Shown here one piece after another: positions 12,443 to 63,910 of a stretch of DNA of 64,000 bases. Numbering within the stretch: position 1 is the first letter of the stretch; the number at the start of each line of letters is the position of its first letter. Location: the NCBI GenBank assembly GCA_964643795.1, contig CAZXUC010000018.1:2238-66237 (forward strand), given 5' to 3'. The notes below the pieces were generated by a model. That model was not told the DNA's origin, searched no databases, and saw only the letters and a program-made list of their open reading frames with translations. The position numbers and the translations under genes are program-made. The stretch comes from an uncultured Halobacteriales archaeon. GTDB lineage: Archaea; Thermoplasmatota; E2; JACPAO01; JAHFTW01.

Positions 12443-12515
12443 GGTGACGCAGGGCCCGGCACGGTCTTGGAGGTTGCGCTGTGACCGACGGACGACCCCA
12501 CGCCAGCCTGTCTGG

Positions 12516-12577
12516 CCGCGGAATCAAGGAATCCAGGGAACCTGGTTTCCCCTGATTCCGTGGATTCCGCGGCTCGG
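12516..12577. repeat. Palindromic repeat R-E, copy 1 (CCGCGGAATC...GATTCCGCGGCTCGG).
   Basis: Near-identical ends shared with 32166..32211. Internal GGAATCC/CCTGG palindrome. Confidence 0.6.
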
Positions 12578-14739: not shown

Positions 14740-14792
14740 TGCTGCGGTCGACTCGTGAGCAGGGCGGGGCCGCGCGCCGCAACCACCATCAT

Positions 14793-14858
14793 CCACCGAT
14801 GTCACCGATGACACCGATGCGGTGTCTCGTCGTTCGGTGACATCGGTGTCATCGGTGG
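14793..14858. terminator. Long inverted repeat / hairpin with tandem CACCGATG units, immediately after the adenosyltransferase stop.
   Basis: ccaccgatgtcaccgatgacaccgatg ... gtgacatcggtgtcatcggtgg, 17-22 bp stem. Confidence 0.4.
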
Positions 14859-14905
14859 ATTGGATGTCGAATCTTGCTGCAACCGTAGACGGTGGACGAC
14901 GCCCC

Positions 14906-15057: not shown

Positions 15058-15081
15058 CGGTCGGCGTGCGCGACTTTTCCC

Positions 15082-18926: not shown

Positions 18927-19019
18927 CACGATGGACTAGAGGCGCATCACGACGAACCTTCGCACCGGAGACTCCATAGTGAAAGGTGCGACGCGGCATT
19001 CGGTCGTGCGACGGCAGCG

Positions 19020-19328
19020 TCAAGGCGGCGACGGTAACACTTCGAGCATCTCTTCGAGGAGTCGCTCGACCGCTCGCAGGTCCTTTGTCCGTCCCTTCCC
19101 CGGCTTCGTGCGCAGGGCATGGACAGCCTTGCGCATCTTCGCGATGGTCTTCAGGCTCGGCGGGCTTGGCTTGTTCTTGCCGCCAGGTGCCCGCAATGCT
19201 TTCACGACTTCCTGGAACCTCGCGTCCGTGCGCAGCTTGTACGCCTCCGCGGATTCCTTCCATGCACGTCGGGCCGCTTCGACCTCTACGGCAAGGGCCT
19301 GCGCATGTTCCACTCGCTTCGACGTCAT
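19020..19328 (-). CDS. Small basic protein coupled to the thymidylate-kinase-like pair.
   Basis: Its ATG overlaps the stop of the upstream gene (ATGA). Sequence MTSKRVEHAQALAVEVEAARRAWKES... Confidence 0.5.
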   Translation of the reverse strand: MTSKRVEHAQALAVEVEAARRAWKESAEAYKLRTDARFQEVVKALRAPGGKNKPSPPSLKTIAKMRKAVHALRTKPGKGRTKDLRAVERLLEEMLEVLPSPP

Positions 19329-20023
19329 GGCTTGGTTCCCCACGAAGCGAGAAGTCCCTGCAGTTGCGATTGCAAATGCCGGTCGACGACGCCGACGCCA
19401 CGGTTCGCGTTCACGACGTTGAAGCCATAGCGCGGGATGATCTCCTGGAACTGGTCGCGCATCTTGCGTTGGTACTTCAAGAACGATTCGTGCCAATCCC
19501 GGCTCAGGCCCAAGTCCATTCCGGATTCCCAGTAGTCGAGGTCGGGGTGGCGCTCGAGGCGCCGGTCGAGCAGGGTCTTGGCGCTGGCTTGCAAATAGAA
19601 CAACGCGTCCGGCACGATGGCCTTGGCATACACGTTCTCCACCCAGGCGGGGTCTGCGCCGCGGACAAGGTCGCGGGCCATCAGGGTGAAGATGTACCGG
19701 TCGGCGAGCACGATGGCGCCCGAGCGGAGTGCGGGGACGATCTGGTTCTCTAGTTGGTCGTAGAAGTCACTGGCATAGAACAAGCTCATCGTGCGCGGCG
19801 ACAAGGTGTTGCCACGACGGGCTTCCTCGAGTTCCGGCGCGACCAGTTCGCTGCGGCGCAGTCCGACTTCCACGACGGCGTAGCCTTCGCGCTGCAGCCA
19901 CTTGGAGAGGAGGCTAACGTGCGTTGACCGACCTGAGGAATCCTGGCCCTCGATGACGATGAGCAGGCCACCAAGGTCGGCGAGGTTGACGCCGGGCGGA
20001 GGGACACCGTAGCACGTCTTCAC
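19325..20023 (-). CDS. Thymidylate-kinase-like P-loop kinase, paralog B (P-loop Lys replaced by Arg: GRST).
   Basis: IVIEGQDSSGRST P-loop and DRY motif. Start overlaps the upstream stop. Confidence 0.8.
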   Translation of the reverse strand: MKTCYGVPPPGVNLADLGGLLIVIEGQDSSGRSTHVSLLSKWLQREGYAVVEVGLRRSELVAPELEEARRGNTLSPRTMSLFYASDFYDQLENQIVPALRSGAIVLADRYIFTLMARDLVRGADPAWVENVYAKAIVPDALFYLQASAKTLLDRRLERHPDLDYWESGMDLGLSRDWHESFLKYQRKMRDQFQEIIPRYGFNVVNANRGVGVVDRHLQSQLQGLLASWGTKP

Positions 20024-20976
20024 AATGGCACCCCGCGATACACTCGGCTGCGCCGTTGGAATCGCGCCAGATCAACGCGCTTCTTGACGACCGCCCGCAT
20101 CTCCTCCTGCATGGCATGGATCTCCCGGTTGGCGTCGATGCGTTGGAAAGCGAACTCTTCCGCCATGTCGCGATAGTGCTGCATGATGCGACCCTGGAAG
20201 ATCTTGAACGACTCCCGGATGTCCGTATGGAGTTCAAGGTCCATGCCTGCCTCGTGGAACTTGAGGTTGGGTCGGCCGCTGAGGATGCGATGCAGGCTGA
20301 CCTCGAGCGGGACGTCGTAGTAGAACGTCAAGTCGGGGACGCGGGCAAAACTGTACAGGCGACGTAGCCACTCGGGGTCGCAGCCGCGTACGCGGTCGCG
20401 CGCGAAGGCCGTGAACATGTAGCGGTCACACAAGACGATGGTGCCCGATTGCAGGCGCGGCAGGATCTGGCGTTCATATCGGTCCGCAAAATCCGTGGCG
20501 TGGATGAGGCTGAACGTCGTCGGCGTGAGAAGTTGGTCCTTCTTGCCGCGCTTGGTTGCCCCGCGCACGAGGCTCGAACTGTTCCATTCGCTGAAGAAGA
20601 CCTTGCAGCCAAGGCCGATGAGCCACTCGTGCAGGAGCCGGATCTGCGTCGATTTCCCGGAGCCGTCGACGCCTTCGACTGCGATGAGTATCCCCGGCGC
20701 GTTGTCGCCCTGCTCGGCGACGAACTCTGAGGCGGGCGCTTGGGCCGGCGTCAAGGGAGTGGCGGGTGTTGGTAGTGTGGTCGTGGGTGTTGGTAGTGGG
20801 GTGGTTGGTGTCGATGTGGAGGTTTGTGTTGATCCGGGGGTTGGCGTTGATGCGGTGGCTGCTCCCGGGCCTGACGCACCAACTGGTTGTGCCGGGGTCG
20901 CCTTGTGAAGTGGTGGTCTTCCCGCAAGCGCCTTGGGCCTGGTCGTCGCCATCGGCGTCTTGATTGCGGCCTTCAT
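20020..20976 (-). CDS. Thymidylate-kinase-like P-loop kinase, paralog A, with a P/T/A-rich N-terminal extension.
   Basis: IAVEGVDGSGKST and DRY motifs. Start chosen at MKAAIKTP to avoid the 170-nt overlap with ppx that ORF 20020..21183 would create. Confidence 0.7.
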   Translation of the reverse strand: MKAAIKTPMATTRPKALAGRPPLHKATPAQPVGASGPGAATASTPTPGSTQTSTSTPTTPLPTPTTTLPTPATPLTPAQAPASEFVAEQGDNAPGILIAVEGVDGSGKSTQIRLLHEWLIGLGCKVFFSEWNSSSLVRGATKRGKKDQLLTPTTFSLIHATDFADRYERQILPRLQSGTIVLCDRYMFTAFARDRVRGCDPEWLRRLYSFARVPDLTFYYDVPLEVSLHRILSGRPNLKFHEAGMDLELHTDIRESFKIFQGRIMQHYRDMAEEFAFQRIDANREIHAMQEEMRAVVKKRVDLARFQRRSRVYRGVPL

Positions 20977-21011
20977 CGGTTTCACGGGCGGCTTCTTGCG
21001 GGGCTTGCTGC

Positions 21012-22571
21012 TCAAGTCGACTCCTCCTTCTGTGTCTCGAGTTCCAGCCCGTAGACTGTCGTGAAGAGTCCGCCTTTTTGTTGCACGGCCCATTGCTCCA
21101 GTTCCATGTCGCCCTCGCCCGTGAGGCGGAGGCGGAGCAATTTCGGTTCGCGCAGGCACTTGACTTTGCGCACGGCTTGGCAATGCTCCCGGTCGAGGGC
21201 GTCTGCGACGCGAAGGATGCCGGACAGTCGCATCACGCGGGCTTGGTCGGCGAGGCTGAGCGCAGCGTACGGCGCATGGCTCGGCTTGGGCTCACTGCGC
21301 CGGTGGTACCGTGCGACCTGCGCCACGAGTTCCACTTCCGGTTCCGAGAAGCCCGGCAGCTCCGATTCCGAGATGAGGTAGTAGGAGTGCTTGTGGTGTT
21401 TCTTGTCGCCCACGAATCGCCCGACGTCGTGCAGGATGGCGGCGGCGTGCAGGATGGCTCGGTCAGCGGTGCCCAGGTTGTGCAGGGTGGCCAACTGGTC
21501 GAACATGGACAGGGCAAGCCGGGCCACATGAAGACCATGCGCCTGCTCAAGGTCGAACCTGCGTCCGAGGGCGAGCGCCCCGTCTTGGACTTTGGACGCG
21601 TATTTTCCAGCGCGACCGGGAGTAGCCCCTGTCGCTTCAACGAGTTGCTCGACGAGGTCGTACACGATGCCTTCCTTTAGTCCAACGTGGGGGACGTGGA
21701 TGCGGTCGACTCCTGCCAGGTGCGCGACGTGTTCGTACACATACGCAGCGGGGAGGATGACGTCGGCGCGGTCGGGGCGGAGGCCGAGTTCCTTGACGCG
21801 CTCCTTTGCGTCGAGCTTGGCGAGCCGGTCGATGGTCTTGCTGAGGTCCTTGAGCGGCATCTCGCTGACCTTCGTGTCCGGGTCGCGGAGGCCGGCGAGG
21901 CGAGCCAACTCTTCGATGTTGCCTCCCGTCGCGGCGAGGCCGGCAATCTTGCGAGACCTGCGGTTGCCGGGCAGGCGCAGCGTCTCGACGGTCTCTTGGA
22001 TGAGGCGACGGAACCGTTCGGGTTCGCCCTCCATCGCGCGGAATTCTTCGAGCAGGCGGACGGTGCCCATCGGATGCGATTCGCTCCACACGAGTCCGTC
22101 GCCGTCCACGAGGCTCACCTCGACGGAGCCGCCGCCCAGATCCATGGTGATCCAGGACCCGTCCATTTTGATGCGGCGGCGCACCGCCGCGTACACGAGC
22201 CTGGCCTCTTCGGCGCCGCTTACGACGTCGACGCGAAGGCCCGTCTCCTTCAGGATGCGTTCGAGGAAGCGACTTCGGTTGGACGCCTCACGCACGGCGC
22301 TCGTTGCGACAGCGCGCGTCTGGTAAACCTTCAAGTCTTTGAGTTGGCTCTGGAAGCCCTTCAGCGCGGCGACTGCGGCGTCCATCGTCTCCCCGTCGAT
22401 GGAGCCTTCGCGGAAGACGGACGTCCCCAGCCGCACGGTGGCGCGTTCCTCGAGCAGGTCCCGCAAGTCGCCGGCCGGAGTTGCCTCGGCGACCATGCAA
22501 CGGATGGCGTTCGATCCAATGTCGATGGCGGCGAGGCGGACGGGCCATGTTGCGCTGGTCTCTGTGGTCAC
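21012..22571 (-). CDS. ppx: Ppx/GppA exopolyphosphatase with a C-terminal HD domain.
   Basis: AAIDIGSNAIRC actin-fold N-terminus. HD motif (LHDVGRFVGDKKHHKHS). Confidence 0.9.
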   Translation of the reverse strand: MTTETSATWPVRLAAIDIGSNAIRCMVAEATPAGDLRDLLEERATVRLGTSVFREGSIDGETMDAAVAALKGFQSQLKDLKVYQTRAVATSAVREASNRSRFLERILKETGLRVDVVSGAEEARLVYAAVRRRIKMDGSWITMDLGGGSVEVSLVDGDGLVWSESHPMGTVRLLEEFRAMEGEPERFRRLIQETVETLRLPGNRRSRKIAGLAATGGNIEELARLAGLRDPDTKVSEMPLKDLSKTIDRLAKLDAKERVKELGLRPDRADVILPAAYVYEHVAHLAGVDRIHVPHVGLKEGIVYDLVEQLVEATGATPGRAGKYASKVQDGALALGRRFDLEQAHGLHVARLALSMFDQLATLHNLGTADRAILHAAAILHDVGRFVGDKKHHKHSYYLISESELPGFSEPEVELVAQVARYHRRSEPKPSHAPYAALSLADQARVMRLSGILRVADALDREHCQAVRKVKCLREPKLLRLRLTGEGDMELEQWAVQQKGGLFTTVYGLELETQKEEST

Positions 22572-22610
22572 GGCGGCCGCACTCCTCGAGGGCAGACCGG
22601 ATTTCCACTT

Positions 22611-22625
22611 TCCCTATAGAGACTA
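22611..22625. promoter_or_regulatory. CTATAGAGACT motif (inverted copy of GACTCTATAG) in the ppx/pstS divergent region.
   Basis: About 10-bp motif seen four times in the pho locus promoters. Other copies at 22725-22737, 23860-23869 and 23875-23890. Confidence 0.4.
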
Positions 22626-22724
22626 CGGCTCGTTGCACGTGTTGGCCGCCCCAGTTTGGGCGCATGCTTTGCGCGGTGGACTGTTGGGCATTCCCCTGCG
22701 GCGTGAGTCCAACGTGAGTCAATT

Positions 22725-22737
22725 GTGACTCTATAGG
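22725..22737 (+). promoter_or_regulatory. GACTCTATAGG motif (TATA-like) upstream of pstS.
   Basis: Same motif as above. Lies about 25 nt upstream of the TTG at 22759 and about 60 nt upstream of the SD-preceded ATG at 22798. Confidence 0.4.
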
Positions 22738-27532: not shown

Positions 27533-28765
27533 GTGGACTTCGGCCCGCTCTACAGCAACCGGACCCACCTCATGAAAGCGAGCGAAATCCGCGAGCTGCT
27601 GAAGCTTACGGAGAAGCCATCCATCATCAGCTTCGCCGGCGGTTTACCCAACCCGCAAACGTTCCCCGTCAAGGAGATTGAGGAAGCGACGAAACGCGTG
27701 CTGCGCGACCATTCCAAGCAGGCCCTGCAATACAGTACGACGGAAGGCGTCACCGTCCTACGCGAAGCCGTCGCTGAGCACCTCAAGAAGGAAGGCATGC
27801 AGGTCCACCCGGACGAGGTCATCATCACGAACGGCAGTCAACAAGGGCTCGACCTCCTAGGCCGCGTCTTCATCGACCGCGGCGACACCTTGGTGGTATC
27901 GAACCCAACGTACCTCGGCGCTTTGCAGTCGTTCAACTACTTCGGCGCCAAGTATGCGACGGCCGACTCGGACGACGACGGCCTCATCCCGGAAGCCCTC
28001 GACGAGACCCTACAGCGCCTCAAACGCCAAGGCATCCGACCGAAGTTCCTCTACCTCGTGCCCACGTTCGCAAACCCGACGGGCACCTGCATCCCCGCGA
28101 GTCGACGCAAGAGAATCCTGGAACTCGCGCACGAATACGACATCCTCGTCATTGAGGACGACCCGTACGGCAAGCTCCGCTTCGACGGTTCACCCATCCC
28201 GACGATGCATTCCATGGACAAGGGCGAAGGCCGCGTCCTCTACTTGGGCACATTCAGCAAGATCCTCGTCCCCGGCTTCCGACTCGCCTGGAGCATCGCG
28301 CCCCACGACGTGACGCGCAAGATGGTCATCTCCAAGCAATCCGTGGACCTCTGCACGAACGCCTTCACGCAATTCATCGCAGCCGACTTGCTGACAGGCG
28401 GCCTCATCGACCGCCACGTCCCCGAGATCATCAGCATGTACCGCAAGAAACGCGACCTCATGCTGAAGGGCATGACGAAGCACTTCCCCCAAGAAGGCAC
28501 ACACTGGACGCAGAGCCAGGGCGGCCTCTTCACGTGGGCAAAGATGGCGCCGCACGTCAACACCATCGAGATGCTCAAGGACGCCATCGCAAAGGACGTC
28601 GCCTACGTTCCAGGCAAATCGTTCTTCCCCGACCCGAAGGAGGGCTTCAACACGATGCGGCTCAACTTCAGCCACCCGACGGACGAGAAAATCCAAATCG
28701 GCGTCGAACGCCTCGGGGAAGTCATGTCGCGCTGGACGGCGAAGAAGACGGCCGTCGCTGCCTAG
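27533..28765 (+). CDS. PLP-dependent class I/II aminotransferase (2-aminoadipate/aromatic aminotransferase-like).
   Basis: SEIRELLKL N-terminus and GTFSKILVPGFRLAW Lys motif. GTG at 27533 is about 26 nt after TTTTAT (27505-27510). Alternative ATG at 27572. Confidence 0.85.
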   Translation: MDFGPLYSNRTHLMKASEIRELLKLTEKPSIISFAGGLPNPQTFPVKEIEEATKRVLRDHSKQALQYSTTEGVTVLREAVAEHLKKEGMQVHPDEVIITNGSQQGLDLLGRVFIDRGDTLVVSNPTYLGALQSFNYFGAKYATADSDDDGLIPEALDETLQRLKRQGIRPKFLYLVPTFANPTGTCIPASRRKRILELAHEYDILVIEDDPYGKLRFDGSPIPTMHSMDKGEGRVLYLGTFSKILVPGFRLAWSIAPHDVTRKMVISKQSVDLCTNAFTQFIAADLLTGGLIDRHVPEIISMYRKKRDLMLKGMTKHFPQEGTHWTQSQGGLFTWAKMAPHVNTIEMLKDAIAKDVAYVPGKSFFPDPKEGFNTMRLNFSHPTDEKIQIGVERLGEVMSRWTAKKTAVAA

Positions 28766-28787
28766 ATTTTACGCTGCACTGATGGCC

Positions 28788-28983
28788 GTAGTGTGGGAGG
28801 CCTGGGATTGCACAGAGATTCACAGAGCTTTGACCTCGACGCGCCGGGCACCATGCCGGTCACGCGGAGAACGCGGAAACCCGCGGAGTCCAGTTCCGCG
28901 CTGTTCCGCGCCCTCCGCGTGAAGGCCGAAGCTCGCCGACGACTCGATTCTGTGTAAATCCGTGCAATCCCAGGCCTCCAAAC
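28788..28983. repeat. MITE-like palindromic element R-A, copy 1, with 18-bp perfect TIRs GGAGGCCTGGGATTGCAC.
   Basis: Left end tagtgtgGGAGGCCTGGGATTGCACagagattcacagag. Right end is its reverse complement. Nested core CACGCGGAG...CTCCGCGTG at 28861-28921. Confidence 0.65.
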
Positions 28984-29006
28984 GCCCGGCCAACGACCTG
29001 AAACGG

Positions 29007-30605
29007 CTACTGCCGCAGCGCCCGCACGTCGTCGAGGATGGTCCGCACCGCCATCTCTTGCACGTTGCGCATCGCGGCGTCGACTTTGTAGCCGAGGATG
29101 TCCTGGCCGCGCAGCAACCCACTGAGGCGCTTGCGGTTGTAGTCCAACGCCTCCGTTGGAACCACTTGGTCAAGGATTCCGGCCGCGTCGGCGAGACCGA
29201 GGAGCAAAATCGTTGCGGCGTCCGGTGTGCCGCCGCCCGCGATGGCTCGCCGGAGGCGGTTGCGTAAGCGCTCCTGCGCGGTCGGATTCGTGACGGCGAA
29301 CGTCGAGCGGCGGAAGATGCCCATGTGCTTCCATTCGCGGGCCTCGGCGAGTCCTTTGCCGACGAGGCTTGCTTTACTGGCTCGGATGAGTCCGGGCAGT
29401 TCGCTGCCAAGGCTCTTCATCGCATCGCGGCTCGTCGTGTCCTTCATGACGCTCAACTTGTTGAGAAGCGGCGCTAGGCGGGGCGTTCCGTTGCCTTGCA
29501 CGATGAAGCGGTCGCGCTGCACCTGAAGGGCGCCGTGGTGGACGGCTTCGAGGAGAAGCGCACCAAGGAGCGCGCCGCCGACGCCGCCGGACGCCACTTT
29601 TTCGCCGCGCTCATCCCAGATTCCTTCCGCGGCGAGCAGGAGGAATGCTTCGGGGATCGGTTGCTCCGAACTGGATTTCGTCGCCTCTTCGTCGTGGACC
29701 TGAACCATCGAACCGTTGTCGCCCGAGTCGGCATCGGCGTCGGGTGAACGCCCGCGACCCTTGCGCGAGGTCCCGTCGTCATCGCGCGCGTCGGGGGCAG
29801 CATCAAGTGAGTCTAGGACGACCGGCTTGGCGCGCCGCTTCTCCAGTTCAGCGACCCAGTCGGTATTCTTGCCGGCGGCCGCGGCCTGCGTCTTCTTTGC
29901 GGGCTCGCCTTTCTTGGCCGTCTCCTTCGCGATTTCCGGCTCGAGTTTGCGGCGGTGGCCATTGGTGGGAGCGGGCTTCACTGCGACGGCCGGCTCGGAC
30001 GGCACGACTTCCGGTTCCGCTGGAGGGGAGTCTACCTCGATTGTGTTGGCGGCCTTGCCATGCAGCGCGGGTTCAGGTTTCGCGTCGACGACTGGCTTGG
30101 CCTTGGCTTGCTTGGCTGCCGCCTTCTTCGCCGCCTTTGCAGCCTTTGCCTCGGTCTTGCGCAGTTTCTTGGCGGCCTTCTCGTGCGACGCCTTCAGTTT
30201 CTTCGCCGCCTTTGCCTCCGCTGCGAGCTTCTTCTTGGCGGCCTTTGCTTCAGTCGCCTTGAGTTGCTTGGCGGCCTTGGCGTTCGTCGCCTTGTGCTTC
30301 TCGGCTGCGGCCGCGTCCACGGCCTTGTGCGCCTGCGCGGCATGGGCGTCGGTGTCCTTGTGCGCCTGCACCGGATCCGAGGATTTCGCATGGGCAGGCT
30401 TCGCCTTGGCGGCCTTGGCTTTCGCCTTCGTCGCCTTCGGGCTCGAACTCTGCTTGGCGGCTTTGGCCGGTTTGGCGGCCTTCGCGGGCTTGTGCGCTTT
30501 CGGCTCCGTTTTCGCAGCCAGGTGGGGTTTGGCCTTGGCCTTGGCGTCCTTCTTCGCGGCTTCCGCCTTCTGCTTCATCGCTGCCTTCTGGGTGCGCGTC
30601 GCCAT
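29007..30605 (-). CDS. Lys/Ala-rich (histone-H1-like) N-terminal region fused to a C-terminal GPP34/GOLPH3-like domain.
   Basis: About 200 aa of KAAK/AKAK repeats. The C-terminal segment LLLAAEGIWDERGEKVASGGVGGALLGALLLE... resembles GPP34 (PF05719). Confidence 0.75.
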   Translation of the reverse strand: MATRTQKAAMKQKAEAAKKDAKAKAKPHLAAKTEPKAHKPAKAAKPAKAAKQSSSPKATKAKAKAAKAKPAHAKSSDPVQAHKDTDAHAAQAHKAVDAAAAEKHKATNAKAAKQLKATEAKAAKKKLAAEAKAAKKLKASHEKAAKKLRKTEAKAAKAAKKAAAKQAKAKPVVDAKPEPALHGKAANTIEVDSPPAEPEVVPSEPAVAVKPAPTNGHRRKLEPEIAKETAKKGEPAKKTQAAAAGKNTDWVAELEKRRAKPVVLDSLDAAPDARDDDGTSRKGRGRSPDADADSGDNGSMVQVHDEEATKSSSEQPIPEAFLLLAAEGIWDERGEKVASGGVGGALLGALLLEAVHHGALQVQRDRFIVQGNGTPRLAPLLNKLSVMKDTTSRDAMKSLGSELPGLIRASKASLVGKGLAEAREWKHMGIFRRSTFAVTNPTAQERLRNRLRRAIAGGGTPDAATILLLGLADAAGILDQVVPTEALDYNRKRLSGLLRGQDILGYKVDAAMRNVQEMAVRTILDDVRALRQ

Positions 30606-30693
30606 GGGAGTCCCTATGGTCCCGGCGAGGCAGGGTTAGGAAGAAGAGCCCTTCGCTCGAGCGGCAATCCGCTCGACCGATTGGTCGGCCTTC

Positions 30694-30770
30694 GCCGACC
30701 GGGTGGGGGGCTCTGCCCCCCACCCTCTGCCCCCCGCCGGTGGCCCTGCGGTCCCCCGGACCCCCTTGCC
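30694..30770. repeat. G/C-rich repeat R-D, copy 2 (GCCGACCGGG...CTGCGGTCCCCCGGACCCCCTTGC).
   Basis: Shares a 25-nt block and overall architecture with 38432..38553. Confidence 0.55.
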
Positions 30771-31535: not shown

Positions 31536-32165
31536 GCGCTGCCATGATGCAGGCGGTTCAAGGCGTTGGCGACGACGTGATTCAAGGCGCTGGCGACGAA
31601 GTGGTGGCCAGCTCCGCCCCCGGCCGGCGGCAGGGGAGGCGGCGTGGTGGGCGCCTGCGTCCTTCCCGCCATGATGCAAGTGATTCCCGCAAGCAAGGCC
31701 AGCAAGTGGCGGCTTGCCAATTCGACCGCGTACTCGGCCTTGCTGACGTCGCCGTAGGAGGTCTTGGACGTGCAAGGGTCGCCCGCAACTGAACATCAGG
31801 CTGATGCAGCCGCCGAGCGCCGTGAACGCCCCCGCCCAAGCAATCACCGCTTGGCGGACCAAGATGCCGATTGCCGCCACGGCCATGAGTCCAAGCAAGA
31901 CGAAGGGCGGCGGGTAATGCTTCTGCGAGCACGTCGTCTCGGTGGGAGGGCGCGTAACGTCACCCGTACGCCGCACTCGCTCGATGCCGCCGGATCCCAA
32001 CGATCACGACGAGCCGCGGAATCCGCGGAGCCTGTCCGCGTATTCGACAGGCGCAAAAGGAAAAACTCGTTCAAGCCGCAATGTCGACGAAAATCGCCGC
32101 TTCTGCGTCGAGATTCTCCTTGGTTTCCTGTGGAAAATGGTCAAAAAGGCATTTCCCGGACAGGC

Positions 32166-32211
32166 TCCGCGGAATCTTGGGAAACCAAGTTCCCTTGATT
32201 CCGCGGCTCGG
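32166..32211. repeat. Palindromic repeat R-E, copy 2.
   Basis: CCGCGGAATCttgggaaaccaagttcccttGATTCCGCGGCTCGG, matching 12516..12577. Confidence 0.6.
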
Positions 32212-33333: not shown

Positions 33334-34914
33334 TCAGAACTTTATTGCCGCACCCAATCGGGGCTCGACCGCTCGCCGTCCCAAGACGGCGCTGTAATGC
33401 TCGACGCCTTCCGTGTGGACGGGGATGATGCGCTTCGCGCCCATCGCGTCGGCCATCCAGAGCAATTCCTTCTCCGTCGCGTGCCCTGAGACGTGAGCGC
33501 CCACTTCGCGCAGCCCCCAACGGTTCAGCCACCATTGCAGGCGCGCCCGGTCGTGCACCATTTCCTCCGAGAACGGTTCCGTCTTCGAGTTGACGTAGGC
33601 TCCGCCCGGTGGGTCCAGCATTCCTGGGCCGGCCGCATATTCATGCAGTTCCGTCAGGTTCCAGATGTCAGCGAAGACGAGAAATCGGCCCGGGTCAGCC
33701 TTCACGTCGGCGCGGGTGACGGCGTTCGGATGGCTGAGGTACGGACGCTCCCAAGTTTGGTAGTCCTGCGCGACGAGGTCGGGTTGGGTGCCGCGTAGTG
33801 CATCGTTTCCGACGAGGCCCCACGATTTGCGGGGGATGTAGATGCGCACGTCGGGGTCGTCCGTGCGCGGGATCGGCGTGTCGAGTGCCTTGCTAGCTGT
33901 CGCGTCCACCATGTCGAGGAGGTAAGCCTGCTTGAGGCTCAAACACAATTTGCGACCAATCTTGCGCGCCACACGCAGGAACGTCTCGAGGCGGTCGAGG
34001 TCGCGTTGTGGGTATGCCACGAACACGTAGCCATGCTCGCCGGCCAATTGCTCGGCGATGTAGGATTCGACGCCGCCTTCAGTGTAGTCGCCGAGCGCCT
34101 TGAAGTCGTGCAGGTGCCCGTCGTGGCGCTTCTTTTCGTCGGCGACCTCCTTCGGGTTCTGCACGTTCGTGCCTTCAATGATGAGCGCGTCGACGCCGGC
34201 GCAACGCTCGACGAACCGCTCCGTCCATTGCTTGTTGCGGCCATGCATGCGCAAATCGCCGGAATACGCAATCTGGACATCGCCCTCAAGCAGGATGCCG
34301 CGAGCACCATGGATGGAGTGGTCAACGGGCATTAAATGCGCCGTGATTCCGTCCAACTCCAGCCGCGACTCGGTATGCCAAGGGCGGTGTTGCGGGGTCT
34401 CGCCCTTCTCACTGTCCCCGCTGGATGAGTACTTGACGCGAACCAGGCGGTTGTCCTGGCCCTTGCGTTTGTCCGGGCGCAGGCGGAACTGCTCGCGGAA
34501 CGTCGTGAAGTCGCTTTGATCGAACGAGCCGCCGGTCTCCTCGATGGCGCGCGCAACCGCGAACGCCGTTGGACTGGAGGCGACCGTGATGTCGGGGCGC
34601 AGGAGGGGAACCAAGCCAAGGTGGTCGATGTGGGGGTGGCTGATGAACACAGCATCGAATCGGCGCTCCTCGGCGCGGGCTCCCGATTGGCCGCGGTAAT
34701 CCTGGCGGTAAAGGCCGGGCACGTCTGGTGCCACGCCCGCGAGGAGCCAATCGGCCATTCCGTTGACCTTGCGTGGCTTGAGGAACTCCGAGAACGCCTG
34801 TCCGTATCGCTTGAATGAGATGCCGAAGTCGAGGAGGACGCGCGAGCGGCCGGAGGAGACCTCGAAGCAGTTGCCGCCAATCTCCGCCACACCACCGTGC
34901 GGGACAATCTCCAC
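33334..34914 (-). CDS. Metallo-beta-lactamase / beta-CASP family nuclease (RNase J-like).
   Basis: HPHIDH motif. 526 aa with a beta-CASP-like C-terminal region. Confidence 0.8.
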   Translation of the reverse strand: MEIVPHGGVAEIGGNCFEVSSGRSRVLLDFGISFKRYGQAFSEFLKPRKVNGMADWLLAGVAPDVPGLYRQDYRGQSGARAEERRFDAVFISHPHIDHLGLVPLLRPDITVASSPTAFAVARAIEETGGSFDQSDFTTFREQFRLRPDKRKGQDNRLVRVKYSSSGDSEKGETPQHRPWHTESRLELDGITAHLMPVDHSIHGARGILLEGDVQIAYSGDLRMHGRNKQWTERFVERCAGVDALIIEGTNVQNPKEVADEKKRHDGHLHDFKALGDYTEGGVESYIAEQLAGEHGYVFVAYPQRDLDRLETFLRVARKIGRKLCLSLKQAYLLDMVDATASKALDTPIPRTDDPDVRIYIPRKSWGLVGNDALRGTQPDLVAQDYQTWERPYLSHPNAVTRADVKADPGRFLVFADIWNLTELHEYAAGPGMLDPPGGAYVNSKTEPFSEEMVHDRARLQWWLNRWGLREVGAHVSGHATEKELLWMADAMGAKRIIPVHTEGVEHYSAVLGRRAVEPRLGAAIKF

Positions 34915-35071: not shown

Positions 35072-37804
35072 ATGGTGGATGAAACAAACGAACCAGGCCC
35101 CGAACGCACCCTATTCAAGCGCACTCGGCGCGACCCGTTGCGGGGGCACCCCATCGAAGACCCTCACGGGGTCGAGGCCGCCCTCACGAAGGGCACGTTC
35201 GCTCCCCTGGAAATGCATCAACTCAACCTGCGCGCCCACCGTTTGCGCGCCATGCGGCATGAAGGCATCACGACGTTGCCGCAACTGCGCCGCAAGATTC
35301 GCATCCTGCCCCACCAAGTGAAGGCAGCCATCAAGATCCTCAACCAGATGCAGGGCCGTGGCATCCTCGCCGACGAAGTCGGTCTCGGGAAGACCATCGA
35401 GGCGGGCATCGTCATGAAGGAACTCGTCGCCCGCGGCAAGGCCAAGACCATCCTCGTCCTCACGCCCGCGTCGCTTGCTGCCCAATGGCAGGAGGAACTT
35501 TGGAACAAGTTCGGTGAGCGCTTCATCAAGCACGATGACATGGAATTCAAGGGCTTCTCCAAGCACGACCGTATCGTGGCTTCGATTGATACCGCCAAGT
35601 CAGCGCAGCATTATCCCGACATCATCGGCCGCGAATGGGACTTGTGCATCATCGACGAGGCGCATTACCTCAAGAACAAGAAGACGCAGCGTTACTCGCT
35701 TGCGGACGACATCACGGCCCGCCACGCTTTGATGCTCACGGCGACGCCCATCCAGAACAACCTCATCGAATTGTACAACCTCATCAACCTCATCAAACCG
35801 GGCCTACTGGGCACGATGCAGAATTTTGAGGAAGAGTACATCGGTGATGCGCAGGGGCGAGTCCTGCTTCACGCGACGCGGCTGCAGACGTTGCTCAAGC
35901 AGGTGCTCATCCGGAACCGTCGCTCCGAGACCGGCCTCAAATTCCCGGAACGCAAGGTCGAGACGAACCGCGTCCAAGCCTCCAAGGGCGAATACGAACT
36001 GCATCAGGCCGTATCGAACTTCATCCGCAACTACAAGCAATTCTTCGATTCGCATCTCGCGTTGATGGTGTTGGAACGTGAAGTGGCGTCTTCCGCCCCC
36101 GCCCTAGCAAAAACGCTGGGGAACATGCTGCCCAAGGTGCACGACCCTGAAGTCGCCAAGGCAATGGAGGACCTCAAGCACCTGGCCGACTCCATCAAGC
36201 GCAATGCTAAGGTCAACCTCATCGTCGACATCGCGAAGGGTACGAAGGAGAAGATGATCGTCTTCACGCAGTTCCGCGAGACGCAGGAATTGCTTGCGCG
36301 CCGCCTCAAGCTGGAGGGCATCGAGAACGTCAAGTTCCACGGCCAACTCACGCCCGGCCGCCGCCGCAAGGCGCTCGAAGAGTTTCGTGACCAGGACATC
36401 CAGGTCCTTGTCGCCACCGACTCCGGGTCCGAAGGCTTGAACTTGCAATTCTGCCACATCATGATCAATTATGATTTGCCGTGGAACCCGATGCGCGTCG
36501 AGCAACGCATCGGCCGCGTCCACCGCATCGGCCAAGAGTCGAGCAACGTCATCATCCTAAACTTGGCCGTCGCCAACACCATCGAGGACTACGTGTTGCA
36601 GGTCCTCTACGAGAAGATCAAACTATTCGAGGTCGCGATTGGTGAAATGGACCTCATCCTGAGCGACATCAACGAGGAAGGTGGCCTGGAGAAGCGCATC
36701 CTCGACATCATCCTTGAGACGAAGAACGACGAAGAGGTCCGCGACTCGCTGCAGAAGGTCGAGCGCGACGTCAAGAAGTCGAAGGAACAGGCCGAGGAGA
36801 TCAAGATGCTCGACGCATCCGTGTTCCAACAGTTCGACCTATCGACCGCGAAGGATGACGTCAAGATTGAGGACTCGGTTGACTTGGAGGCCGAAGTGCA
36901 GGATTTCGTCTCCTCGTTCCTGCGGGCAGCCTCGGGTGAAGTCGAAGTGACGGACCACATCACGACGGTCAAGCTCCCGCGCAGCTACTGGAAAAAACTC
37001 GGCGGCCTGCACACCTACACGACGGACGCGGAGACGTTCGAGGACCGCGACGGCGAAGTCGAACTCCTCAGCCTCGGCTCCAAGTTCGTGCAAGGCGTCA
37101 TGGACGTTCTGCAAGGGGAAGGTTCGGTGGGCGAAATCCGCACGGACCAAATCGATGCTCCCGTGACGCAGCTCTACTACCGCTACTTCATCGAGACGCT
37201 GCGCAGCGAAATGGAGGCCTTCGTGACGATTCACATCGCCGATGATGGCTCGCTACTCAAGGTTCAGGAAGACCTGGCCGAGGTCCCGGACGGGACGCCA
37301 GCGGCCTCGGCGCATGCCATCACGGCGGCCGAGTGGACCGAGATGCAGGAGAAGGCCCGCTTCGAAGTGGGAAACCTCCTCGTGCCTCTCTTGCAGAAGA
37401 AGCGCGAAGAGGCCGGCGAAGAGATCCGCCGCACAGAGAAACGACTCGAGCACTACTACGAGGGGCTCAAGGAGGAAATCCGCGGCGACGAGGCAAAGAT
37501 TCGCCGCAAGATGGGCGACATCCGCAACCGCCTATGGTTCACGGAGAACGGCGTCCGCGAACGCAAACTCGAGGAGCAATACCAGCAGCTCGAGGCGCAA
37601 CTGCACGATTTGACGTTCAAGAACAACCGCCGCGTCGAAGAACTCGACAAGGAATTGAAGGACCGCCTAGTACGCGAGCACGAGAAGAACGAGCCTCGCC
37701 TCATCGTCGAACTCATCGGCGCGACGCGCTTGGTCCCCGCGGCAGGGAGTGTCCGCGTGGCGGCGACGGCACGGTCACGTGAGGTCGCGGCCGTCGCCGC
37801 CTAA
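35072..37804 (+). CDS. SNF2-family DEAD/DEAH helicase with a C-terminal coiled-coil region.
   Basis: Motif I VGLGKT, motif II DEAH, helicase-C motifs. ATG at 35072 in ORF 34985..37804. Confidence 0.9.
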   Translation: MVDETNEPGPERTLFKRTRRDPLRGHPIEDPHGVEAALTKGTFAPLEMHQLNLRAHRLRAMRHEGITTLPQLRRKIRILPHQVKAAIKILNQMQGRGILADEVGLGKTIEAGIVMKELVARGKAKTILVLTPASLAAQWQEELWNKFGERFIKHDDMEFKGFSKHDRIVASIDTAKSAQHYPDIIGREWDLCIIDEAHYLKNKKTQRYSLADDITARHALMLTATPIQNNLIELYNLINLIKPGLLGTMQNFEEEYIGDAQGRVLLHATRLQTLLKQVLIRNRRSETGLKFPERKVETNRVQASKGEYELHQAVSNFIRNYKQFFDSHLALMVLEREVASSAPALAKTLGNMLPKVHDPEVAKAMEDLKHLADSIKRNAKVNLIVDIAKGTKEKMIVFTQFRETQELLARRLKLEGIENVKFHGQLTPGRRRKALEEFRDQDIQVLVATDSGSEGLNLQFCHIMINYDLPWNPMRVEQRIGRVHRIGQESSNVIILNLAVANTIEDYVLQVLYEKIKLFEVAIGEMDLILSDINEEGGLEKRILDIILETKNDEEVRDSLQKVERDVKKSKEQAEEIKMLDASVFQQFDLSTAKDDVKIEDSVDLEAEVQDFVSSFLRAASGEVEVTDHITTVKLPRSYWKKLGGLHTYTTDAETFEDRDGEVELLSLGSKFVQGVMDVLQGEGSVGEIRTDQIDAPVTQLYYRYFIETLRSEMEAFVTIHIADDGSLLKVQEDLAEVPDGTPAASAHAITAAEWTEMQEKARFEVGNLLVPLLQKKREEAGEEIRRTEKRLEHYYEGLKEEIRGDEAKIRRKMGDIRNRLWFTENGVRERKLEEQYQQLEAQLHDLTFKNNRRVEELDKELKDRLVREHEKNEPRLIVELIGATRLVPAAGSVRVAATARSREVAAVAA

Positions 37805-37824
37805 TCCTTGGTTTCGCCGGGCCC

Positions 37825-37934
37825 TAGTGTGGGAGGCCTGGGATGGCACAGATTTTCACAGAACTTGAGAGGCGGCCTTCTGCTGCGGCAAGACTAGTCT
37901 GTGGGTCTCCGTGGAATCCCAAGCCGCCCACACC
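37825..37934. repeat. MITE-like element R-A, copy 2 (short form).
   Basis: Left end tagtgtgggaggcctgggatggcacagattttcacagaac. Right end is an imperfect inverted copy (gtggaatcccaagccgcccacac). Confidence 0.6.
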
Positions 37935-37963
37935 GACGGTCGCCAGCCTGACTAGAAGCGCGT

Positions 37964-38389
37964 TCAAACGTCAACAAGCAGGACGCTGCACTTCGACTTG
38001 CGTAGGATTTTTCCCGTCCGCGACGCAAGGCCGCCCCAGCGCCCGGCCGCGCCGTGCATGACGATGAGGTCGTGACTGGCAGTCTCCTTGATGATTTCCT
38101 TCGTAACGTTGCCCTTCACCGTCTTGAACTTGATCTGCACACCGTGCTTTCGGCAACGCTTCGACGCCATGCGAAGCACTTGCAGCGTCGACGCCTCGGT
38201 GGGAAAGATTTCGTCCTCCTCGTCGTCCTCGAACTGCTTGATTAGGTCCTCGGGCGCATGCTCGAAGCCGGCTTGACGCACGACGAGGATGGTCGCTTCG
38301 AGGCCGGGCGTCTGGAGCATCTGCAACGCCTTGTCCATGCAAGCCAGGCTTCGCTCGGAGCCGTCCATCGGGAACAGGAGCCTTTTCAC
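37964..38389 (-). CDS. Universal stress protein UspA family.
   Basis: 141 aa with the Usp fold signature (LVMHGAAGRWGGLASRTGKILRKSKCSVLLV). Confidence 0.85.
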   Translation of the reverse strand: MKRLLFPMDGSERSLACMDKALQMLQTPGLEATILVVRQAGFEHAPEDLIKQFEDDEEDEIFPTEASTLQVLRMASKRCRKHGVQIKFKTVKGNVTKEIIKETASHDLIVMHGAAGRWGGLASRTGKILRKSKCSVLLVDV

Positions 38390-38431
38390 GCCAACACCAG
38401 CCGCGGCACCCTAGTGGGGGGCCTTAGTCTT

Positions 38432-38553
38432 GCCGACCGGGAGGGGCTTCGCCGCTCAACCCGAAGTGCGGGCTGCGCCCGCACGGCGAGGGGCGCTGCC
38501 CCCCGCGCCGTTCCCCGCCGCTGGGGGACCTGCGGTCCCCCAGACCCCCTTGC
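38432..38553. repeat. G/C-rich repeat R-D, copy 1, abutting the tRNA-Leu 3' end.
   Basis: CTGCGGTCCCCCAGACCCCCTTGC ends 5 nt from the tRNA. Homologous to 30694..30770. Confidence 0.55.
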
Positions 38554-38558
38554 GTCAG

Positions 38559-38642
38559 TGCAGAGGCCAGGATTCGAACCTGAGAACCACGAAGGACTGG
38601 ATCCTAAGTCCAGCGCCTTTGACCAGACTTGGCTACCTCTGC
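38559..38642 (-). tRNA. tRNA-Leu, anticodon TAG, long variable arm.
   Basis: Reverse complement folds as GCAGAGG acceptor / CTTAGGA anticodon loop (TAG) / long variable arm / GGTTCGAATCC T-arm / CCTCTGC-A. No encoded CCA. Confidence 0.85.
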
Positions 38643-38709
38643 GTGCAGGCCGCTACGCTACGAACACGATAAAGCGAACCGGAGCCACGCGCCCTGGCGC
38701 GAATTGCCC

Positions 38710-40027: not shown

Positions 40028-40495
40028 TTCAGCTCCGCTTCCTCTTTCCGCAGATGACACAGATTTCGCAGACCGTTGCAGTCCCTTCGTACCGTTGAAC
40101 TCTGTGACCGGTCCCGACTACGCGAGCAATGCGGTAGGCCAGCGGCGCGCCGCTTCACGCGGAGGCCGCGGAAGTTCGCGGAACGACCGGTCGCAGAACG
40201 CGCAGAAACCACAGAATTCGTTTCTGCGCCTTCTGTGCGTTCTGCGACTGGGCGTCGGCGGCTCGCGGCGTGTTCCGCGTTTTCCGCGCACTCCGCGTGA
40301 AAAGGGCGAGTCCTGCTGCGATGGCAAACCGTGGACCACGCCGACGTCGGCGGACTGCGGTAATCCATGTGACCGAGGCATCGATCAACGGATCTGTTGT
40401 GCTAGCCGGATTGCTGGCGTAACCTGCCGAGCCTAGAATGGGGTCAGGCCTCCAGTCCGATGGAATACCGCATCTGCGTCATCTGCGGAAAAGTC
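40028..40495. repeat. Composite repeat-rich non-coding element with terminal inverted repeats TTTCCGCAGATGAC / GTCATCTGCGGAAA. Contains the R-B core (40156-40299) and an R-C copy (40345-40495).
   Basis: About 470-bp element inside the 587-bp sepF-ZPR1 intergenic region. Nested palindromes. Blocks shared with 28861-28921 and 14906-15057. Confidence 0.55.
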
Positions 40496-63705: not shown

Positions 63706-63910
63706 GCACGCGGAGCGCGCGGAACGCACGGAACGACTGACGTCGTCAGTTTCCGCGCGTTCCGTGCGTTCCGCGTGTCGCTGGCAGGGGTGGTCGCCGC
63801 CGCGCGGTCCTTGTTTCGTCGCGAGGAACGCCAACCCCGGCTGAAGCCCGCCGTCCGTTCAGGTCATATCCCGCCCGGCCCTCGCGCCAATCGTGACCCA
63901 AGCTCAAGGG

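What the first reader, a model, noticed from the sequence alone, without database searches (positions are those of the whole stretch)
28788..28983. MITE-like palindromic element family R-A/R-B (18-bp perfect TIR GGAGGCCTGGGATTGCAC)
A 196-bp non-coding element has perfect 18-bp terminal inverted repeats and a nested palindromic core (CACGCGGAG...GTTCCGCG...CTCCGCGTG). A shorter copy with the same termini lies at 37825-37934. The core alone recurs at 40156-40299. All copies are intergenic, immediately after stop codons.
Basis: seen in the sequence. Interest (0 to 1): 0.55.

Follow-up and report, generated by a model that had tools for sequence, protein, structure and literature searches.

The report
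Nested palindromic repeat elements in archaeon
The flagged sequence is a real, non-coding, about 210-base nested hairpin-forming repeat in an uncultured Thermoplasmata archaeon; it is one of at least seven similar intergenic palindromes in the window, each built from short words repeated every 9-10 bases, and it behaves like selfish repeat DNA (REP/MITE-like) rather than a classical MITE.

Summary
A perfect 18-nt inverted repeat (28796-28813 / 28962-28979) encloses a CACGCGGAG...CTCCGCGTG palindrome. A shorter, decayed copy lies at 37820-37938.

The "TIR" is not a simple transposon end. It aligns with three-unit CACGGATT array arms of a palindrome in the closest relative. The window holds at least seven intergenic palindromes in five word families. 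Each arm is 2-4 copies of a 7-nt word at an 8-10-nt period, often nested.

Related elements occur in six of seven fragments from related Thermoplasmata genomes, at non-orthologous sites. The spacer downstream of the orthologous gene is only 6-44 bp in six relatives' loci (five distinct relatives). CGCGGAR array palindromes of the same design also occur in soil bacteria.

I found no target-site duplication, no transposase and no Rfam family. The single arms do not fold as REP hairpins.

Best reading: a dispersed, non-autonomous palindromic repeat that is REPIN/MITE-like but meets neither definition. Genome-wide copy number could not be measured. MITE label: partly supported. Interest is moderate.

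The parts
28783..28992 (.). P3: the whole nested imperfect palindrome. Outer F1 arms enclose an inner F2 palindrome. It lies between the convergent aminotransferase gene (stop at 28765) and the GPP34-like gene (stop at 29007).
   Evidence: I1: 44-nt arms. RNA fold -129.2 kcal/mol, z -11.2; both strands fold about equally well.
28796..28813 (+). Left copy of the perfect 18-nt inverted repeat GGAGGCCTGGGATTGCAC. It contains the degenerate first array unit CTGGGATTG.
28962..28979 (-). Right copy of the perfect 18-nt inverted repeat.
28811..28827 (+). Two CACAGAG units with a 10-nt period. Their inverted partners are TCTGTG and TCCGTG at 28948-28963.
28861..28921 (.). Inner F2 palindrome ('core'): three CGCGGAR heptamers per arm with mirrored periods of 9 and 10 nt and a 4-7 nt loop. 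The 2-3-nt spacers between units are not complementary between the arms.
   Evidence: (I5).
37820..37938 (.). P5: second F1 copy, short and decayed. It lies between the convergent SNF2 helicase gene (stop at 37804) and the USP gene. It shares about 47 nt on the left and about 35 nt on the right with P3; the interior is unrelated.
   Evidence: (D20, I8).
40156..40299 (.). P6 outer: an F2 palindrome with three CGCGGAR units per arm and a 90-nt interior.
   Evidence: (I10).
40190..40248 (.). P6 inner: an F5 palindrome with three CGCAGAA/CACAGAA units per arm, nested inside P6.
   Evidence: (I2).
63707..63777 (.). It lies between divergent genes. Two pairing registers, one unit apart, are possible.
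   Evidence: (I4, I11).
12515..12573 (.). P1: an F3 palindrome with GCCGCGGAATC termini and GGAATC units, in the ArsR-ZIP spacer.
   Evidence: (I9).
32010..32210 (.). P4: the second F3 copy. It has the same GCCGCGGAATC...GATTCCGCGGCTCGG termini and a 118-nt interior of lower GC content.
   Evidence: (I7, I8).
14791..14860 (.). P2: an F4 palindrome with three CACCGATG units per arm at a 9-nt period. Homologues lie at L066:550-642 and L100:2545-2610, at different loci.
   Evidence: (I3).
40044..40493 (.). Composite region of about 450 bp bounded by inverted CGCAGATGA arrays. It contains P6 and the repeat module of about 210 nt.
28749..28764 (+). 16-mer CGGCCGTCGCTGCCTA, which encodes the last codons (AVAA plus stop) of the upstream gene. 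A 15/16 identical copy sits at 37788-37803, at the same offset (16-19 nt) before P5.
   Evidence: 0 of 500 shuffles reach the score.

Best explanation
The feature is a non-coding nested palindrome of about 210 bp. It belongs to a lineage-wide superfamily of intergenic 'array palindromes' in these Thermoplasmata archaea.

Anatomy. Each arm consists of 2-4 copies of a 7-nt word of the form CRCNGA(N): CACAGAG, CACGGAT, CGCGGAR, CGCAGAA or CACCGATG. Copies are spaced 8-10 nt apart, and the second arm mirrors the first. P3 is an F1 element (GGCC, CTGGGATTG, CACAGAG x2) with an F2 element (CGCGGAR x3) in its centre.

Behaviour. I read these as dispersed, non-autonomous selfish repeats, REPIN/MITE-like in behaviour. 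They insert into permissive intergenic DNA, often the short spacer between convergent genes or the centre of an existing palindrome. Their ends stay conserved while interiors diverge. They gain and lose units by slippage, and they decay, as copy 2 has.

Mechanism. Neither window copy nor the clearest bacterial family has a target-site duplication. Transposition therefore probably does not use a classical DDE cut-and-paste enzyme. A single-strand hairpin-recognising enzyme (HUH/Y1-type) or a recombination or template-switch route is more likely.

Consequence. Any transcript reading into P3 would form a very stable hairpin. That could secondarily insulate or stabilise the 3' ends of the two convergent genes.

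Shown: the anatomy, the dispersal, absence downstream of the orthologous gene in six relatives' loci, the lack of a TSD, transposase or Rfam match, and unit-number polymorphism. Inferred: mobility, the transposition mechanism and any host effect.
For: - Anatomy and significance. There are 21 arrays in the window against about 5 in shuffles. Paired arrays have mirrored periods: 9 nt x86, 8 nt x35, 10 nt x15.
- The F1 arms align with the three-unit CACGGATT arms of L065:1128-1200, the closest relative at 88% amino-acid identity.
- Two F1 copies share their ends (89% over 47 nt) but not their interiors. F3 has two copies, P1 and P4. F2 has three copies.
- F4 homologues sit at three different loci in three genomes: window 14791-14860, L066:550-642 and L100:2545-2610.
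- The spacer downstream of the orthologous aminotransferase is 14 bp in L066 (which has the same GPP34 neighbour), 11 bp in L065, 6 bp in L068, 21 bp in L100 and L101, and 44 bp in L099. It is 241 bp here.
- Array palindromes occur in six of seven relatives' fragments.
- Same-locus metagenome contigs differ by exactly one 9-10-nt unit: L070 versus L077, and L074/L093 versus L096.
- Copy 2 has non-compensated arm mismatches.
- Fold energies show no strand asymmetry, which points to a DNA-level palindrome.
- A Logan contig of the same organism ends exactly inside an F2 arm (window 40174) and inside another repeat (38524). This fits multi-copy sequence in the sample.
- The bacterial L073/L076 family shows the same design (terminal inverted repeat, CGCGGAA arrays, variable loop), is multi-copy and has no TSD.
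Against: - Only two F1 copies are known, and the genome-wide count could not be made. The long F1 pattern gave no metagenome hit.
- No TSD, no transposase and no polymorphic empty site in a near-identical strain was found. The relatives used are 80-88% identical at protein level, so insertion boundaries cannot be read.
- L102, an 80% relative, has CACAGAT arrays plus a CGCGGAR palindrome in the same slot downstream of the aminotransferase. Different families also occupy the same intergenic slots in different genomes. This equally fits selection for a hairpin at those positions.
- Words within an arm stay identical while spacers vary. Simple selfish spread plus slippage does not explain this.
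Confidence: 0.55

Rival explanations
1. Host-selected structural element. The palindromes are kept because a strong hairpin in the spacer serves the neighbouring genes. It could act as a bidirectional transcription barrier or insulator, or protect the RNA 3' end. Its sequence family would then be replaceable.
For: - P3, P5, P2 and L100:2545-2610 fill the spacers between convergent genes.
- The same slots carry palindromes of different families in different genomes. The ArsR-ZIP spacer has F3 here and F4 in L066. The site downstream of the cobalamin adenosyltransferase has F4 here and a CGCAGAT inverted-repeat element in L066. The site upstream of ZPR1 has F2/F5 here and CACGGATT in L065. The site downstream of the aminotransferase is occupied here and in L102.
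- The hairpins are very stable.
Against: - Six relatives' loci manage with 6-44 bp at the aminotransferase 3' end.
- Copy 2 is decaying without compensatory changes.
- P7 lies between divergent genes and P6 lies upstream of a gene.
- No T-run follows the hairpins. From general knowledge, archaeal termination relies on oligo-T rather than hairpins.
- There is no strand asymmetry of the kind expected for an RNA element.
Confidence: 0.2
2. Protein-binding arrays. The repeated 7-nt words at a period of about 9 bp, in direct and then inverted orientation, are cooperative binding sites for a DNA-binding protein. Ribbon-helix-helix dimers bind arrays in this way, as do transposase subterminal sites and nucleoid proteins.
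For: - Words are conserved within an arm while the 2-3-nt spacers vary and are often not complementary between arms.
- Unit number (3-4 per arm) and period (8-10 nt) are strikingly constant across archaeal and bacterial examples.
- The same word vocabulary appears in both domains.
Against: - At least five different words occur in 64 kb, and up to four in 5 kb of one bacterial contig (L080). That would need many cognate proteins.
- No candidate binding protein is linked to the elements.
- Several arrays (P2, P6 inner, P7) are near-perfect hairpins including their spacers.
Confidence: 0.12
3. Local origin without mobility. Each palindrome arose where it lies, by inverted duplication or template switching followed by slippage of short units. 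Similarity between loci would reflect a limited vocabulary of slippage-prone words.
For: - One-unit indel polymorphisms occur between same-locus contigs.
- L084 shows 18-nt higher-order repeats.
- The two arms have mirrored periods.
- No TSD or transposase was found.
Against: - P3 and P5 share 47 nt of non-array end sequence at 89% identity, although they lie at unlinked loci.
- P1 and P4 share their termini plus the flanking TCGG.
- F4 copies in three genomes share ends and the start of the loop.
- L073 and L076 copies share a 110-nt loop.
- None of this is expected from independent local origins.
Confidence: 0.08
4. Classical MITE: a deletion derivative of a DDE insertion sequence (IS66 or another), mobilised in trans through its 18-bp TIRs.
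For: - Size, the perfect 18-bp terminal inverted repeat, non-coding content and intergenic position all fit.
- A second copy with related ends exists.
- The site is empty in relatives.
Against: - There is no TSD at either copy.
- No transposase domain was found in about 70 ORFs, and no IS66 remnant.
- The 'TIR' is part of a periodic array that aligns with the array arms of L065.
- The whole body is palindromic.
Confidence: 0.05

Closest known systems
REPINs / REP sequences mobilised by RAYT (HUH Y1) transposases in bacteria
   Same: - Extragenic and palindromic.
- Two inverted conserved ends separated by a highly variable spacer, forming one long hairpin.
- No TSD.
- Long persistence within a lineage.
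- Often nested or clustered.
The description of REPINs is from bioRxiv 10.1101/2021.07.10.451892 and PMC3733652.
   Different: - Each REP is itself a palindrome of about 14 bp with a GTAG tag. The F1 arms alone do not fold (z = +0.4 to +1.2 for three arms, -1.1 for the fourth).
- GTAG is present only at one end of P3; P5 has CTAG there.
- No RAYT was seen.
- The arms are arrays of 9-10-nt units.
- REPINs are reported as not detected in archaea.
Prokaryotic MITEs (for example Correia/NEMIS, ERIC, RUP, and archaeal Sulfolobus and haloarchaeal MITEs)
   Same: - Short, non-coding and intergenic.
- Terminal inverted repeats.
- Fold into long hairpins.
- Size variants share the same ends.
The MITE definition is taken from PMC11602168. 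The named examples are from general knowledge.
   Different: - MITEs are defined by a TSD of 2-10 bp and TIRs matching an IS. Neither was found here.
- Periodic subterminal word arrays are not a described MITE feature, as far as I could find.
TIR families associated with RAYT-like 'TIRYT' transposases in Acidobacteria and others (Di Nocera et al. 2013, PMC3733652)
   Same: - Moderately abundant families of long inverted repeats, some self-complementary, organised as dimers or clusters.
- They occur in the same kind of soil bacteria that carry the CGCGGAR arrays.
- The L073/L076 family has a GTAG-tagged terminal hairpin.
   Different: - No tyrosine transposase was found next to any element examined here.
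- That paper does not describe 9-nt word arrays.
MITE with an internal minisatellite in Porphyromonas gingivalis (PMC4596501; title and abstract only) and cyanobacterial STRR heptamer tandem repeats (general knowledge)
   Same: Short tandem units lie inside or alongside intergenic repeat elements, and unit number varies by slippage.
   Different: In those cases the tandem units are contiguous and sit in one orientation in the element's interior. They are not mirrored arrays that form the hairpin arms.
Operator or centromere arrays bound by ribbon-helix-helix proteins (MetJ 8-bp metboxes, omega heptads, ParG tetramer boxes; general knowledge)
   Same: Short words repeated at a 7-9-bp period in direct and inverted orientation.
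   Different: Those arrays are single-locus and linked to a cognate gene. Here there are many loci, many words and no linked regulator.

Membership tests
MITE | Small (50-800 bp) and without coding capacity | tested here: met
   The elements are 119-210 bp. ORFs overlapping them have no Pfam match.
MITE | Terminal inverted repeats of at least 10-15 bp | tested here: met
   18 nt perfect, and about 35-44 nt imperfect. However, the repeat is part of a periodic array.
MITE | Target-site duplication of 2-10 bp flanking the element | tested here: not met
   No direct repeat abuts either copy at any plausible boundary. Flank-versus-flank alignments are no better than shuffles (sequence).
MITE | A cognate autonomous IS with the same TIRs | tested here: inconclusive
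   About 70 window ORFs have no transposase domain. The rest of the genome was not available.
MITE | Multiple dispersed copies and insertion polymorphism | tested here: inconclusive
   Two F1 copies occur in 64 kb. Six relatives' loci have only a 6-44 bp spacer downstream of the orthologous aminotransferase (only L066 keeps the same downstream neighbour), but they are only 82-88% identical at protein level. No near-identical strain was found.
REP / REPIN | Each end is a short palindrome of about 14-40 nt (a REP) able to fold on its own | tested here: not met
   Single F1 arms fold no better than shuffles.
REP / REPIN | Conserved GTAG (or CGTC) tag at one end of the REP | tested here: inconclusive
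   GTAG is present at the left end of P3 (28788-28791). P5 has CTAG there, and the right ends have no tag.
REP / REPIN | Two inverted conserved ends, a variable spacer, and a long hairpin | tested here: met
   P3 and P5 share their ends but not their interiors. Hairpins are shown.
REP / REPIN | An associated single-copy RAYT gene and hundreds of copies per genome | not testable with these tools
   Only 64 kb of the genome is in hand, and no RAYT lies in it.
Intrinsic (hairpin plus T-run) terminator | A GC-rich hairpin directly followed by a T-run | tested here: not met
   No T-run follows either side of P3 or P5. The T4 tract lies before the hairpin, directly after the stop codon.
Curated RNA families (Rfam 15) | A match to any covariance model | tested here: not met
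   Only tRNA-Leu reached the gathering threshold. At E <= 5 there were only spurious sub-threshold matches. Ten bacterial loci gave none.

The most novel reading that the evidence does not exclude
The window elements are the archaeal representatives of a cross-domain, so far unnamed class of replicating 'array palindromes'.

The class has 3-4 copies of a 7-nt word per arm at an 8-10-nt period, mirrored arms and frequent nesting. A shared vocabulary (CGCGGAR, CGCAGAG, CACAGAG, CACGAAG) appears in Thermoplasmata and in Acidobacteria-like soil bacteria.

On this reading they are a REPIN-like system, propagated by a dedicated enzyme that reads the periodic words or the periodically bulged hairpin. 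That would be the first such system in Archaea, where REPINs are reported as undetected.
Probability: 0.22. Interest if true: 0.7.

Novelty: new variant of a known kind. Interest (0 to 1): 0.42.

Why it matters
Small palindromic repeats (REPs, REPINs, MITEs) shape bacterial genome architecture, transcript stability and rearrangements. Very little is known about them in uncultured archaea, and REPIN-type replicators are reported as not yet detected there.

Here an archaeal lineage carries several co-existing families with an unusual periodic construction. The elements sit at synteny breakpoints and between convergent genes. The same construction, down to the same words, appears in soil bacteria.

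If the elements are mobile, they point to an unidentified mobilising enzyme. They would also be a handy marker for strain typing and for explaining assembly breaks in these MAGs. If they are not mobile, they are a case of recurrent selection for hairpins in compact archaeal intergenic DNA.

Taken alone, the flagged copy is an ordinary selfish-repeat insertion with no evident effect on the neighbouring genes.

Tried and rejected
- **Genome-contig scan with the 18-mer (one N):** 63 single hits in unrelated taxa.
- **Metagenome contigs with the long F1 end pattern:** 0 hits.
- **Viral contigs with the F1, F2 and 26-mer patterns:** 0 hits.
- **Rfam at gathering and E-value thresholds:** nothing but tRNA-Leu.
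- **Exact-protein look-ups to find the source genome or near-identical strains:** only one 1.65-kb Logan contig. The aminotransferase and USP proteins are not on record.
- **Transposase or IS66 remnant:** none in Pfam scans of about 70 ORFs. One weak, sub-threshold SWIM zinc-finger hit at 7564-8397 was ignored.
- **TSD search at several candidate boundaries** (GGAGG, TGTGGG, GTGTGGG, GGCC): none.
- **Tn7-like reading of the TGTGGG termini, and an IS5-type CTAG duplication:** considered and dropped. No 5-bp or 4-bp duplication is present, and CTAG is itself palindromic.
- **CsrA-decoy, C/D-box sRNA, origin-recognition-box and parS readings of the words:** considered from memory and dropped, because the motifs do not match.
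- **tRNA-linked integration** (the 30716/38500 repeat as att sites): rejected. The genes in between are syntenic with L066.
- **Literature searches (8):** no description of 9-nt array palindromes.

Full report

Yes. GGAGGCCTGGGATTGCAC occurs perfectly at 28796-28813 (+) and 28962-28979 (-). With up to 3 mismatches the window has four matches against 0.11 expected.

The imperfect palindrome in fact reaches 28783-28992 (I1). As a single strand it folds into one almost continuous hairpin of -129 kcal/mol, z = -11.2.

The nested core is there: CACGCGGAG at 28861 and CTCCGCGTG at 28913-28921.

The second copy lies at 37820-37938. Its arms carry 1 and 3 mismatches that are not compensatory, and the hairpin is weak, z = -2.4.

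The core recurs at 40156-40299 as reported.

All copies are intergenic, and ORFs overlapping them have no family match. Only the two TIR copies directly follow a stop codon.

**2. Host and context**

The window has 64.5% GC. Its genes include SepF, ZPR1, a PUA-domain protein, tRNA-Leu, a pst/PhoU phosphate-uptake operon, NikR, ArsR and ZIP. Best protein hits are Thermoplasmata MAGs, 88% at most.

A Logan contig from SRR6868923 is 100% identical to window 38524-40174. It stops exactly inside an F2 arm and inside another repeat, which is typical of assembly breaks at multi-copy sequence.

P3 lies between the convergent aminotransferase and GPP34-like genes. P5 lies between the convergent SNF2 and USP genes.

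**3. What the 'TIR' really is**

The four F1 ends align with the two arms of a palindrome in the closest relative, L065:1128-1200. That palindrome is plainly three CACGGATT units per arm.

In the window the pattern is GGCC, CTGGGATTG, CACAGAGATT, CACAGAG. The perfect 18-mer is therefore the GGAGGCC lead plus a degenerate first unit and the start of the second.

The two F1 copies share about 47 nt on the left and about 35 nt on the right. Their interiors are unrelated.

**4. A whole class, not one family**

A search for close inverted repeats and for periodic words found at least seven intergenic palindromes in five word families.

| Family | Word or termini | Copies in the window |
|---|---|---|
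| F1 | GGCC lead, CACAGAG / CACGGAT units | P3 outer, P5 |
| F2 | CGCGGAR x3 per arm | P3 inner, P6 outer (40156-40299), P7 (63707-63777) |
| F3 | GCCGCGGAATC termini | P1 (12515-12573), P4 (32010-32210) |
| F4 | CACCGATG x3 per arm | P2 (14791-14860) |
| F5 | CGCAGAA x3 per arm | P6 inner (40190-40248) |

- Arrays of at least 3 units number 21 in the window, against about 5 in Markov shuffles.
- In paired arrays the period is 9 nt (86 cases), 8 nt (35) or 10 nt (15). Periods are mirrored between arms, for example 9,10 | 10,9.
- In several elements the 2-3-nt spacers are not complementary between arms (P3 core, P6 outer). P2, P6 inner and P7 are near-perfect hairpins.
- Both strands fold about equally well. 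This argues for DNA-level palindromes rather than a strand-specific RNA.
- Nesting is common: F2 inside F1 in P3, and F5 inside F2 in P6. The whole of 40044-40493 is bounded by inverted CGCAGATGA arrays.

**5. Relatives**

L066 (GCA_040960315.1) is syntenic with the window from ArsR to the malic enzyme. It has only 14 bp between the aminotransferase and GPP34 stops. The corresponding spacer is 11 bp in L065, 6 bp in L068, 21 bp in L100 and L101, and 44 bp in L099. P3 is therefore absent from that spacer in six relatives' loci (five distinct relatives, since L100 and L101 carry the same protein); only L066 has the same downstream neighbour.

L102 (80% identity) has 633 bp in that slot. It contains CACAGAT arrays plus a CGCGGAR palindrome, and the same composite is repeated at L102:16991-17231.

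F4 homologues with the same ends and loop start occur at L066:550-642, in the ArsR-ZIP spacer, and at L100:2545-2610, between a permease gene and a polB gene. Both are different loci from the window copy.

Six of seven relatives' fragments contain at least one array palindrome. The window's palindromes coincide with synteny breakpoints relative to L066.

**6. Beyond the lineage**

An exact-pattern scan for the F2 arm in metagenomes returned 30 loci. About 19 of them have the inverted partner array 7-320 nt downstream, which the pattern did not require.

The contigs scanned for family matches are bacterial: they carry an ADOP permease, bacterial-type alaS, Omp85 and Lgt. They also carry other word families of the same design, including CACGAAG, CGCAGAG, CACAGAG, GGATGTG, GACGGTT and GCGGATG. 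Some show the same outer CGCGGAR / inner CRCRRAR nesting.

Same-locus contigs differ by exactly one unit: L070 versus L077, and L074/L093 versus L096. This shows slippage.

One bacterial family (L073/L076) has 32-nt terminal repeats containing a GTAG-tagged small hairpin, four CGCGGAA units per arm and a conserved 110-nt loop. It has several copies and no TSD.

**7. Tests of known kinds**

- **MITE.** Size, TIR and non-coding content are met. The TSD is not met. No transposase or IS66 remnant was found in about 70 ORFs.
- **REP/REPIN.** The overall architecture matches (conserved inverted ends, variable spacer, long hairpin, no TSD). However, single arms do not fold, the GTAG tag is inconsistent, and no RAYT was seen. 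REPINs are reported as undetected in archaea.
- **Intrinsic terminator.** There is no T-run after the hairpin.
- **Rfam.** No family matched.
- **Viral collections.** No hits.
- **Literature.** Eight searches found no description of such arrays.

**8. Interpretation**

The best-supported reading (about 0.55) is that P3 is a nested insertion of non-autonomous palindromic repeat DNA. It belongs to a long-lived superfamily in this archaeal lineage. The superfamily spreads without target duplication, diversifies its words, changes unit number by slippage, and decays.

The rivals are:
- a host-selected hairpin in these intergenic slots (about 0.2). This is supported by slot re-use across genomes, including L102;
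- protein-binding arrays (about 0.12). This is supported by word conservation with variable spacers;
- purely local origin (about 0.08);
- a classical IS-derived MITE (about 0.05).

Three things remain unexplained.
- The three words within an arm are homogenised while the spacers between them are not.
- The word vocabulary is shared across domains.
- The 16-mer CGGCCGTCGCYGCCTA ends both genes upstream of the F1 copies, at the same offset.

**9. Verdict**

The feature is real and statistically secure. The flagged copy is an ordinary selfish-type repeat with no evident effect on its neighbours.

The 'MITE' label is only partly right. The periodic, nested construction, its recurrence in archaea and bacteria, and the lack of any described family make it a new variant of a known kind, of moderate interest.

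The decisive missing data are a genome-wide census, empty-site alleles in population reads, and a search for an enzyme gene flanked by the same arms.

Noticed in passing
window 14862-15075 and 40301-40514: A repeat module of about 210 nt (about 73-75% identity, with an exact 26-mer CGGCGGACTGCGGTAATCCATGTGAC at 14909 and 40348). Each copy lies directly 3' of an array palindrome (P2, P6). It has its own long-range pairing and some compensatory changes. There is no Rfam match and no hit in viral contigs. It could be element cargo or a small RNA.
   Followed up: partly
window 30650-30770 and 38440-38553: A repeat of about 100 nt, G-rich on the minus strand and containing GGGGGACCGCAGGTCCCCC. In both cases it lies about 111 nt upstream of a minus-strand gene start (GPP34-like and USP). 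The second copy abuts tRNA-Leu. It may be a promoter or 5'-UTR element, or another repeat family. The Logan contig L064 also breaks inside it.
   Followed up: partly
window 28749-28764 and 37788-37803: The two unrelated genes upstream of the F1 copies end with the same 16-mer CGGCCGTCGCYGCCTA (residues AVAA plus stop), 16-19 nt before the element. No shuffle of 500 reached this score. It may reflect target preference, an element-derived C-terminus, or coincidence.
   Followed up: partly
window 29007-30605 (-): The GPP34-domain protein has a Lys/Ala-rich N-terminal extension of about 300 residues, encoded partly by 33-nt tandem repeats (30135-30299). The L066 orthologue is 212 aa and lacks it.
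   Followed up: no
window 8900-10750: A lower-GC island with three consecutive ORFs (220, 215 and 166 aa) that have no Pfam match. It is flanked by a small protein with a CcbP-like calcium-binding domain. It may be foreign DNA.
   Followed up: partly
window 22703-22731: A direct array GTGAGTC x3 (10-11-nt period, no inverted partner) about 30 nt upstream of the pstS-like phosphate-binding protein gene. It is a candidate regulator-binding site for the pst/PhoU operon.
   Followed up: no
window 15082-22613, 33334-34914 and 37964-41165, compared with L066: Compared with the syntenic relative, the window has an 8-kb insertion after the cobalamin adenosyltransferase gene, an inverted MBL/RNase-J-like gene, and a 3.9-kb block (USP, tRNA-Leu, PUA, SepF, ZPR1) after SNF2. 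Array palindromes sit at these breakpoints.
   Followed up: partly
L076:7283-7530, L076:1-200 and L073:778-1040: A bacterial REPIN-like family of about 280 bp. It has a 32-nt terminal repeat ACTGCCGCTCGGGCTGGCTACAATGACGGAAG with a GTAG-tagged end hairpin, four CGCGGAA units per arm and a conserved 110-nt loop. One tandem or nested partial copy is present, and there is no TSD.
   Followed up: partly
L102:11236-11345: Directly after the aminotransferase stop in this relative there are three tandem 38-nt repeats, each carrying CCACAGATTCCACAG. About 130 nt further on lies a CGCGGAR palindrome plus a module of about 200 nt that is repeated at L102:16991-17231.
   Followed up: partly
window 51779-51852 and 59650-59723: A 74-nt direct repeat (78% identity) ending in TGA. 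It appears to be the shared C-terminal coding end of two paralogous genes. The first is a TfoX_N-domain ORF at 51106-51849.
   Followed up: no
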